A DNA stretch of 64,000 nt, from assembly GCA_037379345.1 (NCBI GenBank), contig CM074517.1, positions 10,540,001-10,604,000 on the forward strand, written 5' to 3'. Each line of letters begins with the position of its first letter. Position 1 is the first letter of the stretch. The position numbers were made by a program. The DNA is from Perna viridis (lineage: Eukaryota). Below, piece after piece: positions 3,001 through 22,200 of this stretch.

Positions 3001-6000
3001 CATAACTTCCAGGTTTGGAAAGGGACAAAATTTGTAGAAGCAAAAACGACAAATTTCCCAGTGATTAATAATTATCTACTCCTTTAAGATGATAAATGAA
3101 AGCAATGATCACATCCACGCACAACAGCGCAAACACATGTTCTTTACATAACAAAAAAAAACAATAAAACAAACATAACTTTAACAGCTTGCTAGAAGGT
3201 CTCCCAAAAAGTCCTGCCTTCAATGTTTGAAATTATATACAGCTTTATATTTTTTTAATCTGACGTTTCAAGAACTTTAGAATGTTTAACTCATTGTCTA
3301 CATTAAAATCTTCCAATATGTGTCAATGAAAACTTTTTTTAGGTTTGAAAAGATAAACTCGTATGATTCTTTACAGTGGATATGATACAGCAAACCAATT
3401 TTAGAGACCTTATAGCAACAAATGGAAAGCGTTCAGTTTGATCACAGATTAATACGCCATCAGGCACGAATTCAATTCGTTTTACTGGCTCCAGTCCGTA
3501 CACTCGGAACACATATAGTTCGATACCCCTGTGTAGTACAACAGTGTCTGGCCAATCACTCGGCTCGTGCTGTACATCCCATCCAATGAAATTCGGGGCA
3601 ACAAATTGAAATAATTTCCCTAAGATGCCTCGAAGTTTCACCGATCGTTATTCGTTAATTTGCTTGATTTTTTGTGTTTATTATGTCTCCGTCTATTTTT
3701 TCTCCTCCGCCTTTTTCTATCACCTTTATTTTTATTCTTGTCTGTTTTGTTTTCCCTGTTTTTCCCTTTCCGTCGTCGATTTTTCTTTTTACGCCTCTTT
3801 TTATTACCTTTTGTCTTCTTAGTCAATACACACTTGCATGATTCCACAACTTTGACTTTAATTTTCATTAACGTTGATTTCGGATGACACAACATTTTAA
3901 TCTCTTTTGTCACTTTTTCACCAGGCTTACACCGGTAGTATTGTCCTGTTATTGATTCAATAGGGTGTGTACCCTTCGGAGCACATCGTCCTATACAAAC
4001 AGGTTCTGTAATAACGAAATCCGGTTCTGCGAAACTGCATTGCAAACTTTTGATGACAGATTTCTTCCGAAACTTCTGAACACACATCATGGAATCAGTA
4101 TCTGCAAATATGAAACAGATAAAAGATCAATACTAATTCTTAAATTATATTTTAAATAGTCATGTTTGCCCGTCTTAGATTCATTAACCGTTCCCTGATT
4201 TACGCAAACTCGAAAGCTTGCAAGAGTTATCCCAGATGTAGAATTCTTACAAGGTTTCTACTAACGAGCACTATACTCATTATAAAACTGTGAAAGGCAA
4301 ATACAGAGTATGGCCAATATGTGTAGCTTCGTAACAGCGACACCAAAAGTGAACAGCGAATAAACCTTTTGAGCTATCTTCAAATAAGGCATATGACAAT
4401 AGCTCACTTATTTTCGTTTCTACTGGTCTAAGAATCCAAAGATGATAAAAAGTATATGTATTACTGATACTGTGAGCAACTCTTGAATGGTACAATTACA
4501 CTGAAGTGGGCGTGGCCTTTTTGTTTGTTTGTTCGTTATACCGCTGTCACTATCCGACATTGTTCAAGGGCCCTAACCCTGTCTTTCAGATTTAGTTTCT
4601 TCGTTACTATGTTAAAAGTGGTTGTGGCATACATGTATACTTCTTAATATCTTATGTCAGGATTTTTTTCTATAAAGCCGTTCTTTTCCCACTAATAACG
4701 CTTAGAGCATAGTATCATACACATCAAAAATCAAACGACCATTTGCATATGAATTTTTCATTTGTTCTTTGAAACGCAGAATAAAAGTTTGTGACAGTTT
4801 AATATCATTTTTTTTAATTTCAAGATAAGTTGTTATCGAATAAGGTTATAGGGTTTCTATTCTATTTCAGTATATTCATGCAAACCATCGTTGTGCAGCG
4901 ATCTGTGTAAAATTTTATTAATAAATATATCAACTAAATCCATCCGAGTCAAAGGTTGGTAATAGGAGTGTTCTCATATATATGCACTATCCACGTGAAA
5001 GTATATTTAACCTTGTGATGTCTAGGGTAACAAAAAGGGACATACAAATGAAATAATCCTTAGAAAAGCGACCGAATTGCTGCTCATTAAACAAGTATAT
5101 CACTATACATACATTTGTGTATACTTAAAAAAAAACGCCTAAATTGAAAATGAATCAATTAAACTAAACCCGAATCATTATTTGAACACAGGAAAGTGCA
5201 GACAAATAGCAAAAAATCACCGTTAAAGAAAATTCACACGTATAAAACAAAACTGGATAAAGATAAGATGTTAAGTAACTGTGGTGGATCCAGAAGTTTC
5301 AGGGTTTGAAATATCTCTTTCGATGGATTTTTTTTTCATTTCGTGGAAAAGTTGGGCAAAAATTGGCAAATAATTGGCTGGAAACCCCTTTTTCTCTAAC
5401 TTCTCAAAAACTCTGGATCCACCTTTGAGTGGACAAAAGTGACTTTTCAGGAATTTGCTCGTTTGCTTTTGGTAGGCAGTTTTACAAGTTATACTACTTT
5501 AAGTTAACTAGTATTTACAAGTATGGATCGAATTAGTAATACATCAGCGTCAAATACCACAATTAGAAACTTTCAATTTGATTCACGTGAAAAAGCGGAA
5601 GTCATTAATATAATATTCACACTCATCGAAACAAATGATAATAGTATTAGATTTAATACATGGATCAGTTTAATCATATAGGTGAGTAACAAAGTCGGTT
5701 CAAAAGGGCCGATGTTAGGTATTTCTTGTAAAAAAAATAATCAGTCATATGGTCAACTTACAGTATATACACGTATCGCACCTAATAGCTGTAAAAGGGC
5801 ATAAACATTTTGTAGAATGGTTACTAGTACAATTTATTGTCGATTATTTTCAACTGTTGACATAATATAAAAATTTCGTTATATCATGTTATGTTTGTAT
5901 GAAGAATATCTTGGTGGGTGCCAAATTGTCCTCCTGAATGACCCATTTGAGCTCAGATGTAAGATTTGATATTAAGCTGTTGAGAAAGTTTCCCTTACCC

Positions 6001-19205: not shown

Positions 19206-22200
19206 CAAAAAAAAAACGTTTATCCAAGGTTCACAGAAATCCTATTTTTACACTGGAAGGTTATGGCAGTCAGGTTTTATTGCTTTCCGTTTTGAATTTA
19301 AAAGTTTGTATTGAAAGTGACTGAGCCTTACCTTTATGATCGGATGTATTATCCTTTGTAGAATTTCTGTAGTTTGCTAAAGCCTTGTTCTTTGTTTCTT
19401 CAGACGGAATAAAAATAGAAGAGCAATATACGTGCGGTAATAACAATAATATAAAAATGTGAAATTGGCGTATCCACATGTTTTTATCAATGCAAAGTTT
19501 AAAATCCTCGTCTTTTACATTATGTCTGCTACTACGTTTGTCACCTTGCAACTTTGTAAAATATAATCACAGGCATGCACAGGTTATAAATTCTCTGCAC
19601 TAAATCTGTAGTTGCGAATTTCATTTTTTCATCATTTTTCCATTTTGAATATTAGCGTGGTACTCCGACGCTTCTTTTTTAGTCGACAAACGGCCACTTT
19701 ATCCATACGTCAGCTCAAAAGGGGCGTGGCTAAAATTAAACTACCAAACGTCAATCATATTCCCAAATCAAGGATTGTCAATGAAATTTTCTTTTAGAAT
19801 GGAAGGTTGTAAATTCGTGTCATTTAGGTCTGTTTATGACATTTGTATGAATTAAAACGTAAATGAATTTCATTTTTACTTTGATGTTCTTAGCTCAACT
19901 TAATTTAAACTGGAACACTGATTTCATTCAATGTTATATCCACAAGTACGGCACACGCGGCCGAGTTGAAAGGTAGATATTCAGTTCAATCCAAAAATCC
20001 CATGGTAAAGAGCATTTAGGTATAAATCTTCCATTATTCGATAATAAAAACTCTAGCGACACAGTCCGTCTAACGGAGAGTGGTTTGCGGTTTACTAAGA
20101 CATTAATGAGAAGTATACATTTACACAATATCGGTTTGGTAAACAATCTTTTCTCGATGCACCTGGATTTTTAATGATAACACCTGTGAGACAGGTCTAG
20201 CTAGGTAGATTTCTGCACATAGGCTATGTACCTTCGGTCATTTTTTGTGGTTTACAGTTTCTTCATTGTTTTTATGTGCGCCACCCGCGACGATCTTTAA
20301 AAGGTCAACATTTGTTATTCTTAATTTTTAAGCTTATTTCAACAATTTATTTCCGTATAAGTACTGTTATGTATAAGGACATTTTTTATCTATATCCTCA
20401 AATAACGTATTGAAGAAAACTAATGTGTTATTATTTACTTAGCTAAATATAGTGTTATAGTGAAGACGCGAAGGCTTGCAGTTGTTCTTGGTCTTTGAGT
20501 TTTAGTCTCTCACGTTCAAAGTTTATGGTTGTGTATCAAATTGAAAATCTACTGAAGTATCAAAGAACACGGATCACCTTCCGCATTAAAAAATATCTGA
20601 CGGAGCTAGTTGTTTCTAAGGAAAATATTAGAAGAGAGAATGTCTTAAAAATGTGCAAGACCTGCATTCTCTAAAACACGTGCTAGCCCTGCAATCTCTA
20701 AAGAATATGCTAGCCCTGCATTCTCTAAAACATTTTGTAGAGGTGTATATTTTCATGATAATTAGTTGCATGTCTAGATAAGCACATTTTGATTAAGTCA
20801 TTATACGGTTAGTCTTATATCCAGAAGTTAATCTTTATTATGATTTTAAGTGTTTTACTATAGGAAAGCTGATGAAGTACAGTATTATGTTACCCATGTA
20901 GGATGTTTTTAAGTAGTTGTCAAGGTTTTTGATTTAATGGAAATTGGTGATATGTTGGTGTTGAATTGGTGCTTAATTTAGATCATTTATGTAAGTTGTG
21001 ATAATTAAAATAGTTGGTGCATAGTTTGTGTAAAATTGGTGTTGAAAAGTATATACGGACTTTGATTTTCAGTTTTAAAAAAAGATTGGAGATTGAAGTT
21101 TAGTAGTGGAATAAAATGGGATAGGTGGCCAAAAAGGAGAGAAGAAGGAGAGAGAGAGGAGGACGATTGCAGATTTTATGTTTAGGAATATACGGTTGCA
21201 GAATGAATGTAAGATTGGAATTTATTTTTATGTGGTTATGGGATGTGTTTTTCAAGACAAGTGATTCAAGAGGAATATTATTTTTGAGAGTTCTAACTTG
21301 CCGTAACTGGAAGTTAACTCGTTGTTGTTGATGATGTTTGTTTGACGTTTTGACGTATACTTGCAATAACAGGAAGTATTTGTATTCCGGACAATTGTCC
21401 GATGCTATTGTGAATTATTGACGTTAATATAACTTGCCTTAACAGGAAGTTATCGTGTTCCGGACAATGGTCCGAGGTCGTAGATTGTATGTGTTGACGA
21501 TAGTGTAACTTGCCTTAACAGGAAGTTATCGCTATATGGAGAATTCCTCGATTTGTTGATGTCTGTTGTGTTATTCCCCTGTACCATATGGATCCTATCC
21601 GTATGAAGGAATTTGAGAACTTTTAGATGATAATTTGATTGAGTATATGTGAGTTTTTCATAATTTTCTGATGTCAAGATAACTTTTCATCCTGTAACAT
21701 GTATTTTATGTATACTCGTAATAAAATGTAGATTAGTGACAATTTTCTTTATTTTGAACCCGCCTAGAATTGTGAGTAACTTGGCATCTGTGGTTAAAAC
21801 ATAACAGGCAAGAACTTTGCGCGTACTCGGCCGCCATGGCATTTTAATAGCCATGCATTCTTTTAACAATTTTAGTCACGCAATCTCTAAAGAATGTGCT
21901 AACTCTATATTCTCAGGAGCACGTGCTTGTCTTGAATGTCCCAAAGCAACGCTTTACCTTCCTCTTTTCTAGAAATGTTAATCAAGTTTATGTAAATTGT
22001 ACTTAGTTCGAATATTGAAATACTAACAAATTTTGTGCGTGAAATATACTGCAGTAGGCTTCCTGACATGTTTATCATGATCGGGCTATTGGGTATTATC
22101 CTAGAGTTAGTAAGCCATAAGTTCGTACTAAATTGAAATACATAAAGTGAATAGATACCTTCAACATTTCTTATTGTTCATAATTATTTCCAAGTATTGT

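What the first reader, a model, noticed from the sequence alone, without database searches (positions are those of the whole stretch)
3638..19479. Invertebrate sclerostin/SOSTDC1-like gene, split across a 15-kb intron and missed by the ORF track
Seen: two ORF pieces 15.2 kb apart splice in frame at canonical sites into a 203-aa protein with a signal peptide, two N-glycosylation sequons and an 8-Cys knot. Known: vertebrate SOST is a two-exon gene with a phase-1 intron before the knot, has the same C-x13-C-x16-CKC spacing, and inhibits Wnt/LRP5/6 signalling in bone. Inference: this is a lophotrochozoan SOST/Wise homolog with ancestral gene architecture and a candidate regulator of shell or mantle patterning and mineralisation.
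Basis: partly seen in the sequence, partly recalled or inferred. Interest (0 to 1): 0.75.

Follow-up and report, generated by a model that had tools for sequence, protein, structure and literature searches.

The report
Two-exon sclerostin-like cystine-knot gene
This is a real two-exon gene for a small secreted signalling inhibitor of the sclerostin type in an AT-rich, apparently invertebrate genome; such genes are already known outside vertebrates, so it is a correct but fairly ordinary gene call.

Summary
On the minus strand, 19479..19332 (148 nt, donor AAG|GTAAGG) and 4101..3638 (464 nt, acceptor TTTGCAG|AT) add up to 203 codons plus a stop across a 15,230-nt phase-1 intron. Three unnamed database proteins (P0003, P0004, P0005) carry an exon-1-like part running straight into the exon-2-like knot, and map onto the window at exactly these two places. 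Exon 2 encodes an 8-Cys knot followed by a 58-residue tail with 33 K/R. It passes Pfam DAN. It misses Pfam Sclerostin by 0.3 bits, but relatives P0002 and P0004 pass. A family profile hits only sclerostin among solved structures (E 6e-9), and the fold model's three best PDB matches are sclerostin chains. Family membership is therefore supported. The loop-2 NXI motif by which vertebrate sclerostin binds LRP6 is absent (PMC7585440). The taxon, the intron homology with vertebrates and any shell role remain untested. Sclerostin-type genes in cnidarians, a limpet and spiralians are already in print (PMC4079206, PMC13121700). Verdict: new member of a known kind, modest interest.

The parts
19332..19479 (-). 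Coding exon 1, 148 nt (49 codons plus 1 base, phase 1). Encodes the start Met, a signal-like hydrophobic segment and an N-terminal arm with two sequons.
   Evidence: It is 82% identical to the N-terminus of P0003 and 43% to that of P0004. tblastn gives E 1.7e-21 and 1e-6. The exon-1 search returns P0003 only.
19423..19479 (-). Predicted signal peptide, residues 1-19 (basic residue at position 4, hydrophobic core, V-x-C before Ser-Ser).
   Evidence: My reading of the translation by the -3/-1 rule. No signal-peptide predictor was available. The MWIR start and Leu run are invariant in P0003 and P0004.
19342..19365 (-). Two N-glycosylation sequons (NST at residue 39, NTS at residue 44).
   Evidence: Equivalent paired sequons are present in P0003, P0004 and P0005.
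4102..19331 (-). Intron, 15,230 nt, GT...AG, phase 1. It holds interspersed repeat copies.
   Evidence: Repeats at 9286-9483 and 9837-10087.
3638..4101 (-). Coding exon 2, 464 nt including the TGA stop (3638-3640).
   Evidence: P0001 is 99% identical, P0002 59%, P0003 74% and P0004 55%.
3830..4084 (-). 8-Cys DAN/sclerostin-type cystine-knot domain (first to last Cys).
   Evidence: Pfam DAN 24.7 bits (cut-off 22) and Sclerostin 26.7 bits (cut-off 27) on the knot alone. The profile hits sclerostin in the PDB at E 6e-9. Model pLDDT is 73 and the top fold matches are sclerostin.
3641..3814 (-). Polybasic C-terminal tail, 58 residues with 33 K/R and 4 D/E. It carries a conserved N-K/Q-T sequon.
   Evidence: The tail and sequon are shared by P0001-P0005. 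It is not a tandem repeat at the DNA level.
3641..3673 (-). Conserved extreme C-terminus (last 11 residues, ending ...SSKLTNNDR).
   Evidence: Identical in the window, P0001, P0002 and P0003, and near-identical in P0004 and P0005.

Best explanation
A real protein-coding gene with two coding exons on the minus strand. It encodes a 203-residue secreted protein of the sclerostin/SOSTDC1 (SOSD) branch of the DAN cystine-knot family. The protein has a signal peptide, a short N-terminal arm with two glycosylation sequons, an 8-Cys knot with two beta-hairpin fingers and a flexible loop 2, and a long polybasic tail ending in a conserved motif. Shown here: the gene model, the fold class and the family. 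Inferred: it acts outside the cell as a short-range antagonist or modulator of BMP and/or Wnt co-receptor signalling. Inferred: the polybasic tail holds it on sulphated glycans of the matrix, as heparin binding does for vertebrate sclerostin. The LRP6-binding NXI motif of loop 2 is absent. If this protein touches an LRP-type receptor, it must therefore do so through other determinants. Ligand (BMP-type) binding by the knot, the general activity of DAN proteins, is at least as likely.
For: Gene model: searches give the splice sites, phase and length. Proteins P0003, P0004 and P0005 contain the exon-1-like part directly followed by the exon-2-like part. They map to the two exons, with the junction at residues 49-51. 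The control picked out 1 of 516 candidates. Family: Pfam DAN scores 24.6 bits against a cut-off of 22. On the knot alone, Sclerostin scores 26.7 bits and DAN 24.7. Relative P0002 scores Sclerostin 37.7 and DAN 35.2, and P0004 scores 44.0 and 34.5, both above the cut-off of 27. All 4 of 4 knot-only members match both models. The family profile against 177,635 distinct PDB sequences gives 3 hits at E<=10, all sclerostin, with a best E of 6.1e-9. P0004 matches sclerostin at E 1.7e-8 with all 8 Cys aligned. The AlphaFold model has pLDDT 73.0 and pTM 0.53. Its three best Foldseek PDB hits are sclerostin chains (E 1.4e-3 to 3.5e-3, TM 0.56-0.59), while NBL1 ranks 50th at E 0.33. PMC4079206 (passages) gives an 8-Cys pattern and an extended glycosylated N-terminal arm as the marks of SOSD orthologues. 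The basic tail has 33 K/R in 58 residues. Heparin binding through Arg/Lys and a basic C-tail cluster are described for sclerostin (PMC9104784, PMC7585440, passages).
Against: The window protein itself stays below the Pfam Sclerostin cut-off (16.4 bits with the tail, 26.7 without, cut-off 27). No fold match reaches E<=0.001, and the model rests on only 6 sequences. The family is small and divergent: 3 of 1.84 billion representatives reach E<=0.001 with the single knot sequence. No phylogeny against named SOST, SOSTDC1, Gremlin, NBL1 or Cerberus could be made. NXI and HNQ(E)S are absent. No spliced protein of the same species is in the databases: P0001 at 99% identity is the unspliced 150-aa ORF. 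The junction therefore rests on relatives, whose records I could not inspect. Nothing here bears on function, partners or tissue.
Confidence: 0.8

Rival explanations
1. It works just like vertebrate sclerostin/Wise. Loop 2 would plug the first beta-propeller of an LRP5/6 orthologue, the tail would bind the second, and Wnt signalling would be blocked.
For: It has the same family and fold. Like SOST and WISE, it has a basic C-terminal tail (PMC7585440 passages).
Against: The window protein has no N-x-I anywhere. None of the 6 relatives has one in the homologous part; the single NLI in P0003 lies in its read-through extension. In the P0004-sclerostin alignment, the NXI residues face unlike residues. 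Loop 2 is shorter than in sclerostin. No HNQ(E)S is present in the tail.
Confidence: 0.2
2. It is a generic DAN-family BMP antagonist closer to Gremlin, NBL1 or Cerberus. The sclerostin likeness would be an effect of the basic tail and the shared knot.
For: With the tail included, the window protein scores higher on Pfam DAN (24.6 bits) than on Sclerostin (16.4 bits). The nearest ESM Atlas clusters are named DAN or CTCK, not sclerostin (leads only).
Against: Without the tail, Sclerostin outscores DAN (26.7 against 24.7 bits). So the tail does not create the likeness. The knot-only profile finds only sclerostin in the PDB and not NBL1, which is in that library. It has 8 Cys, without the extra Cys that PMC4079206 gives for Grem and NBL1.
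Confidence: 0.1
3. It is a bursicon or glycoprotein-hormone-like subunit that signals through an LGR receptor.
For: Pfam Cys_knot gives weak matches in 2 of 4 knot-only members (best E 5.7e-5). An Atlas lead is 'Partner of bursicon' at 0.85.
Against: Cys_knot scores 12 bits against a cut-off of 24 for the window protein. No hormone chain appears among the sequence hits in the PDB. The Cys pattern lacks the additional cysteines of bursicon/GPH described in PMC4079206.
Confidence: 0.03
4. It is not a working gene. It would be a decaying copy, or two unrelated ORFs that happen to fit.
For: P0003, the closest non-identical relative, has lost its stop codon and its last Cys and has a shorter loop 2. 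Decay therefore occurs in this family. No spliced same-species protein was found.
Against: The window copy has both frames open, all 8 Cys and consensus splice sites. It is 55-59% identical to the intact relatives P0002 and P0004, with 50 invariant columns in the alignment A2. Exon 1 is homologous to their N-termini.
Confidence: 0.04

Closest known systems
Vertebrate sclerostin (SOST; PDB 2k8p, 2kd3, 6l6r)
   Same: It is the only solved relative found by sequence and the best fold match. All 8 Cys align. The C-x13-C-x16-CKC spacing is identical, and in relative P0004 the C1-C2 and C2-C3 spacings are too. Both have a signal peptide, an N-terminal arm, a basic C-terminal arm and a two-exon gene (PMC9104784, passage).
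   Different: Identity is about 25%. Loop 2 is shorter and lacks NXI/PNAIGR, and no HNQS is present in the tail (PMC7585440). The tail is far more basic and ends in its own conserved motif. The window copy has 1 and 3 extra residues between the first three Cys. Equivalence of intron position and phase was not tested.
SOSTDC1 / Wise / USAG-1
   Same: It is covered by the same Pfam family (PF05463). It is described as a secreted cystine-knot protein with two N-linked glycosylation sites (PMC9633957, abstract), as exon 1 has here. It is a dual BMP antagonist and Wnt modulator (PMC12585493, abstract).
   Different: No SOSTDC1 sequence was available for a direct comparison, and no SOSTDC1 chain came back from the PDB sequence searches. 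Loop 2 and the HNQ(E)S motif are said to be conserved between WISE and SOST (PMC7585440, passage) but are not present here.
Invertebrate SOSD / 'sclerostin' orthologues (sea anemone, coral, limpet, amphioxus; spiralian genomes)
   Same: They are described with an extended N-terminal arm bearing glycosylation sites and a reduced 8-Cys pattern (PMC4079206, passages). A sclerostin-type gene is listed as one of three DAN-family genes of spiralians (PMC13121700, passage). A scallop 'Sclerostin domain-containing protein 1' contig is expressed in the mantle (PMC6281612, passages).
   Different: The scallop contig matched SOSTDC1 at BLAST E 1e-17 (PMC6281612 table). That is much stronger than this gene's match to sclerostin (E 0.0035), so this clade may be a fast-evolving orthologue or a separate paralogue. 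The synteny with Gremlin reported for the limpet is not seen inside this 64-kb window.
Gremlin / NBL1 (DAN) / Cerberus
   Same: They belong to the same superfamily. Pfam DAN is passed, and the general fold is shared (NBL1 4x1j, TM 0.51).
   Different: They are not found by sequence at E<=10 with the family profile. NBL1 is only rank 50 by fold. The Cys count differs according to PMC4079206.

Membership tests
Sclerostin/SOSTDC1 (Pfam PF05463) | Score on the family HMM at or above the curated cut-off (27 bits) | tested here: inconclusive
   The window exon-2 peptide scores 16.4 bits and the knot alone 26.7 bits, both below the cut-off. Relative P0002 scores 37.7 and P0004 44.0, both above it. 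P0003 scores 18.0, below it.
Sclerostin/SOSTDC1 (Pfam PF05463) | Eight-Cys pattern (knot plus one finger-tip pair) with sclerostin spacing, without the extra Cys of Grem/NBL1/bursicon | tested here: met
   The exon-2 peptide has 8 Cys. The alignment from the fifth Cys to CKC is ungapped. All 8 Cys of P0004 align to sclerostin. The criterion is as worded in PMC4079206 (passages).
Sclerostin/SOSTDC1 (Pfam PF05463) | Closest solved relatives are sclerostin rather than other cystine-knot proteins | tested here: met
   The profile gives 3 hits at E<=10, all sclerostin. Single sequences give the same result (the other hits, at E 0.48-1.9, are unrelated proteins). Foldseek ranks 1-3 are sclerostin.
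Sclerostin/SOSTDC1 (Pfam PF05463) | Signal peptide followed by an extended N-terminal arm with N-glycosylation sites | tested here: met
   Searches show the two sequons, which are conserved in P0003, P0004 and P0005. The signal peptide was judged by eye only, since no predictor was available.
Sclerostin/SOSTDC1 (Pfam PF05463) | NXI motif in loop 2 (LRP5/6 E1 binding) | tested here: not met
   The window protein has no N-x-I, and neither does the homologous part of any of the 6 relatives. Unlike residues face the motif. The motif is as defined in PMC7585440 (passages).
Sclerostin/SOSTDC1 (Pfam PF05463) | C-terminal tail with an HNQ(E)S motif and a basic cluster | tested here: inconclusive
   The basic cluster is present and is much larger (33 K/R of 58). 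HNQS/HNES is absent on my reading. The motif is from PMC7585440 (passages).
Sclerostin/SOSTDC1 (Pfam PF05463) | Two-exon gene with the knot in the second exon; same intron position and phase as vertebrates | tested here: inconclusive
   Two coding exons with the knot in exon 2 are shown here. That SOST has two exons comes from PMC9104784 (passage). Phase and position in vertebrates were not compared, because no vertebrate gene structure was on hand and human sequence is barred.
Sclerostin/SOSTDC1 (Pfam PF05463) | Groups with SOST/SOSTDC1 in a phylogeny with Gremlin, NBL1 and Cerberus | not testable with these tools
   No tool returned named comparator sequences. All relatives found (P0001-P0006) are unnamed.
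Sclerostin/SOSTDC1 (Pfam PF05463) | Conserved neighbourhood (Gremlin on the same scaffold in limpet; Cul1 and ETV1 nearby; PMC4079206) | tested here: inconclusive
   Only one knot pattern occurs in the six frames of the window. None of 26 other ORFs matched a Pfam family above its cut-off. A 64-kb window is too short, and ORF scans too blunt, to exclude synteny.
DAN superfamily (Pfam PF03045) | Score at or above the curated cut-off (22 bits) | tested here: met
   24.6 bits and 24.7 bits on the knot alone. 4 of 4 knot-only members match.
Glycoprotein hormone / bursicon (Pfam PF00007 Cys_knot) | Score at or above the curated cut-off (24 bits) | tested here: not met
   12.0 bits for the window protein, 13.0 for P0002 and 19.1 for P0004.

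The most novel reading that the evidence does not exclude
This small, fast-evolving clade is a sclerostin-type protein that has given up the loop-2 NXI route. It works instead through its C-terminus. That C-terminus is a hyper-basic, glycosylated tail full of dibasic sites, ending in an almost invariant ...SSKLTNNDR. The end motif could be a new Asn-based receptor-docking motif, analogous to the HNQS tail contact of sclerostin with LRP6 E2. Alternatively it could be a peptide released by processing. If so, the tail rather than loop 2 would be the older receptor-binding device of the family.
Probability: 0.12. Interest if true: 0.5.

Novelty: new member of a known kind. Interest (0 to 1): 0.3.

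Why it matters
It gives a correct model for a gene that ORF-based tracks cannot join across a 15-kb intron. It also adds a divergent member to the sclerostin/SOSTDC1 branch outside vertebrates. The useful point for specialists is the negative one. The knot and the cysteine spacing are kept, but the motif through which vertebrate sclerostin blocks LRP5/6 is not. Wnt inhibition and a 'bone-like' role in shell formation therefore cannot be read off the homology. The conserved polybasic tail and C-terminal motif are the parts worth describing further.

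Tried and rejected

NCBIfam gave nothing relevant. That library covers bacterial and archaeal proteins.

The ESM Atlas placed the knot near clusters named DAN, CTCK, hormone-beta and bursicon-partner, at scores of 0.79-0.92. These are leads only and do not discriminate. For the repeat ORF in the intron it gave only unnamed clusters from assorted invertebrate phyla. The organism therefore could not be named, and 'lophotrochozoan/mollusc' stays unverified.

Rfam found no RNA family in the window. 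TRF found no tandem repeat under the basic tail.

A search for a second knot gene in the window found none.

26 other ORFs gave no Pfam family at or above its cut-off. The single weak row was POTRA_2 at E 0.064, 13.5 bits against a cut-off of 24, which I take for chance. ORFs shorter than 75 aa beyond 24 kb, and most of those of 60-90 aa before 24 kb, were not scanned.

One literature search was badly framed and useless.

I did not use search_dna_similar or genome contigs, because phages, plasmids, E. coli, bacteria and archaea cannot hold this gene.

Supplements are closed. The sequence files of PMC4079206 (figures S1-S5, table S1) and of PMC13121700 probably hold the limpet and spiralian sclerostin-type sequences. 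Those would decide orthology, and I did not see them.

The joined 203-residue product was never searched, folded, printed or saved. The window is not human in my judgement: GC is 27-36% per 2 kb, and identity to human sclerostin is about 25%.

Full report
**1. What is in the sequence**

The window is AT-rich (GC 0.27-0.36 per 2 kb) and has no N. All features described here lie on the minus strand.

- An ATG at 19479 opens a 49-codon reading frame that ends at 19332.
- It is followed by GTAAGG, so the donor reads AAG|GTAAGG.
- The acceptor ...TCTTTTATCTGTTTCATATTTGCAG|AT puts the start of the second exon at 4101.
- The frame then runs to a TGA at 3640-3638.
- The exons are 148 and 464 nt and together give 203 codons plus a stop.
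- The intron is phase 1, splits a GAT (Asp) codon, and is 15,230 nt long.

There are three small corrections.

- There are three N-x-S/T sequons, not two. The third, NKT, is in the tail.
- Exon 1 adds a ninth Cys at residue 19.
- Both pieces are listed as separate mechanical ORFs. Only the join is missing.

**2. Is the join real?**

I searched the two exons separately. I left the joined product out of every search, fold and print.

- The exon-2 peptide found P0001 (150 aa, 99% identical, the unspliced ORF) and P0002 (190 aa, 60%). That is 2 hits at E<=0.01 among 3 candidates.
- The exhaustive search of 1.84 billion representatives with the 100-residue knot part found 3 proteins at E<=0.001: P0001, P0003 (254 aa, E 5e-25) and P0004 (191 aa, E 7e-16).
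- A profile search among longer proteins added P0005 (183 aa) and P0006 (236 aa). That is 5 hits at E<=0.01 among 2,291 candidates.
- P0003 and P0004 begin with the same MWIR... hydrophobic start as exon 1. They are 82% and 43% identical to it over 49 residues, with 18 invariant columns. Both continue without interruption into the knot.
- P0005 lacks the very start but shows the same continuity.
- By tblastn, P0003 residues 1-49 hit 19479-19333 (E 1.7e-21) and residues 51-238 hit 4096-3494.
- P0004 residues 1-51 hit 19479-19330 (E 1e-6) and residues 52-191 hit 4099-3641.
- No other place in the window matches those N-termini below E 1.
- The exon-1 peptide searched alone returns only P0003 (E 8e-17, 1 hit among 3 candidates). 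No protein joins it to something else.
- In P0002, an ORF read from unspliced DNA, similarity starts at the predicted acceptor. The residues before it look like a translated pyrimidine tract.
- As a control, 1 of 516 ATG-to-GT phase-1 candidates upstream of exon 2 has both a signal-like hydrophobic start and a GTRAG donor. It is this exon (the criteria are my own and were chosen after the fact).

What is missing is a spliced product or reads from this species itself. Their short longest contigs (1.4-1.9 kb) fit transcripts, but that is inference.

**3. What the protein is**

The exon-2 peptide has 8 Cys, spaced C-x14-C-x13-CxGxC-x17-C-x13-C-x16-CKC. A 58-residue tail with 33 K/R and 4 D/E follows.

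Pfam scores in bits:

| Protein | DAN (cut-off 22) | Sclerostin (cut-off 27) | Cys_knot (cut-off 24) |
|---|---|---|---|
| Window exon 2 with tail | 24.6 | 16.4 | 12 |
| Window knot only | 24.7 | 26.7 | not reported |
| P0002 | 35.2 | 37.7 | 13.0 |
| P0004 | 34.5 | 44.0 | 19.1 |
| P0003 | 12.8 | 18.0 | not reported |

- Removing the low-complexity tail makes Sclerostin the better model for the window copy, 0.3 bits short of the cut-off.
- P0002 and P0004 pass the Sclerostin cut-off. The degenerate P0003 passes neither model.

Solved structures:

- Among 177,635 distinct PDB sequences, the window peptide hits only sclerostin below E 1 (E 0.0035-0.0047).
- A four-sequence knot profile gives 3 hits at E<=10, all sclerostin, at E 6e-9 to 2e-8.
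- P0004 alone reaches E 1.7e-8, with all eight Cys aligned.
- NBL1, which is in the structural library, is not reached by sequence.

An AlphaFold model of the knot, built from 6 sequences, has mean pLDDT 73.0 and pTM 0.53. It shows the expected paired beta-hairpins with a poorly defined loop 2. Its three best Foldseek matches in the PDB are sclerostin chains (E 1.4e-3 to 3.5e-3, TM 0.56-0.59). Norrin and the VWF CTCK domain come next, and NBL1 is rank 50. No match reaches E<=0.001.

The extended N-terminal arm with glycosylation sites and the reduced 8-Cys pattern are the features PMC4079206 (passages read) gives for SOSD orthologues. I therefore file the gene in the sclerostin/SOSTDC1 branch of the DAN family. 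The reservation is that I could not make a tree with named sequences.

**4. How it probably works**

Shown here: a secretory-type N-terminus, sequons, a knot fold and a polybasic tail.

Inferred from the family: an extracellular antagonist or modulator, held on sulphated glycans by its tail. Heparin binding through Arg/Lys is described for sclerostin (PMC9104784, passages).

- It binds E2 through HNQS plus a basic cluster in the tail, and both are said to be conserved in WISE (PMC7585440, passages).
- Here loop 2 is shorter and has no N-x-I.
- No N-x-I occurs anywhere in the window protein or in the homologous part of any of the 6 relatives. Unlike residues face the motif.
- The tail has no HNQ(E)S.

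I therefore rate 'works like SOST on LRP5/6' at about 0.2. I consider BMP-type ligand binding, or LRP contact by other determinants, at least as likely.

The best-conserved parts outside the knot are the N-K/Q-T sequon in the tail and the last eleven residues. These residues are identical in the window, P0001, P0002 and P0003, and nearly so in P0004 and P0005. That points to a function for the C-terminus, and it is the basis of the novel reading.

**5. Surroundings**

- The window holds no second knot-type exon.
- None of 26 other ORFs matched a Pfam family above its cut-off.
- There is no Rfam family.
- The intron and the flanks carry interspersed repeats.
- The Gremlin/SOSD synteny reported for the limpet (PMC4079206) can be neither confirmed nor excluded from 64 kb.
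- The organism could not be named. The Atlas taxa for a repeat ORF are assorted invertebrate phyla.

**6. Comparison with what is known, and novelty**

- PMC4079206 (2014, passages) reports SOSD orthologues in sea anemone, coral, limpet and amphioxus.
- PMC13121700 (2026, passages) treats sclerostin as one of three DAN-family genes of spiralians, and notes only two annelid assemblies that lack it.
- PMC6281612 (passages) lists a scallop 'Sclerostin domain-containing protein 1' contig that is down-regulated in the central mantle.
- My searches for further mollusc work found only that paper for 'sclerostin domain-containing protein' plus 'mantle'. They found the two evolutionary papers for 'sclerostin', 'spiralian' and 'BMP antagonist'.

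An invertebrate sclerostin-type gene is therefore not new in kind. What is particular here is the divergence of the clade (3 representatives of 1.84 billion at E<=0.001), the missing NXI motif and the conserved hyper-basic tail.

**7. Verdict**

- Novelty: new member of a known kind.
- Interest: 0.3.

Noticed in passing
window 1477-1793: A tandem array with a 32-nt period. Seven overlapping 125-nt copies sit in register at 70-95% identity to the reference.
   Followed up: no
window 9837-10087 (+), 47878-48128 (+), 37089-37336 (-), 26127-26316 (-): An interspersed repeat family of about 180-250 nt, with copies 77-93% alike in both orientations. One copy lies inside the intron. The ORFs across the copies share a similar translation but match no Pfam family. 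The ORF at 31340-31576 looks like a further copy by its translation.
   Followed up: partly
window 9286-9483 and 27991-28188: Two copies (75% alike) of an element whose ORF carries a YIDDV-like stretch that recalls reverse transcriptases (my recollection). Pfam finds nothing. The nearest Atlas clusters are unnamed invertebrate proteins, plus one HTH_animal cluster. The first copy is in the intron, on the opposite strand.
   Followed up: partly
protein P0003 (unnamed record), compared with window 3494-4096: The closest non-identical relative reads through the family's stop position into what is 3' untranslated sequence in the window. It has also lost the last Cys of the knot and has a shorter loop 2. 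It may be a decaying paralogue or orthologue.
   Followed up: partly
window 19423-19425 (residue 19 of exon 1): A Cys at the end of the predicted signal peptide is kept in P0004 and P0005 but is Phe in P0003. If it is not cleaved off, it would be a ninth, unpaired Cys able to form a disulphide-linked dimer.
   Followed up: no
window 20001-22000: The GC skew rises to 0.194 here, against values between -0.14 and 0.08 in the rest of the window. Unexplained.
   Followed up: no
window 3625-4159 (+): Three plus-strand ORFs of 64-75 aa lie antisense to exon 2. They read as Phe/Leu/Ser-rich mirror images of the purine-rich basic tail, and I take them for artefacts.
   Followed up: no
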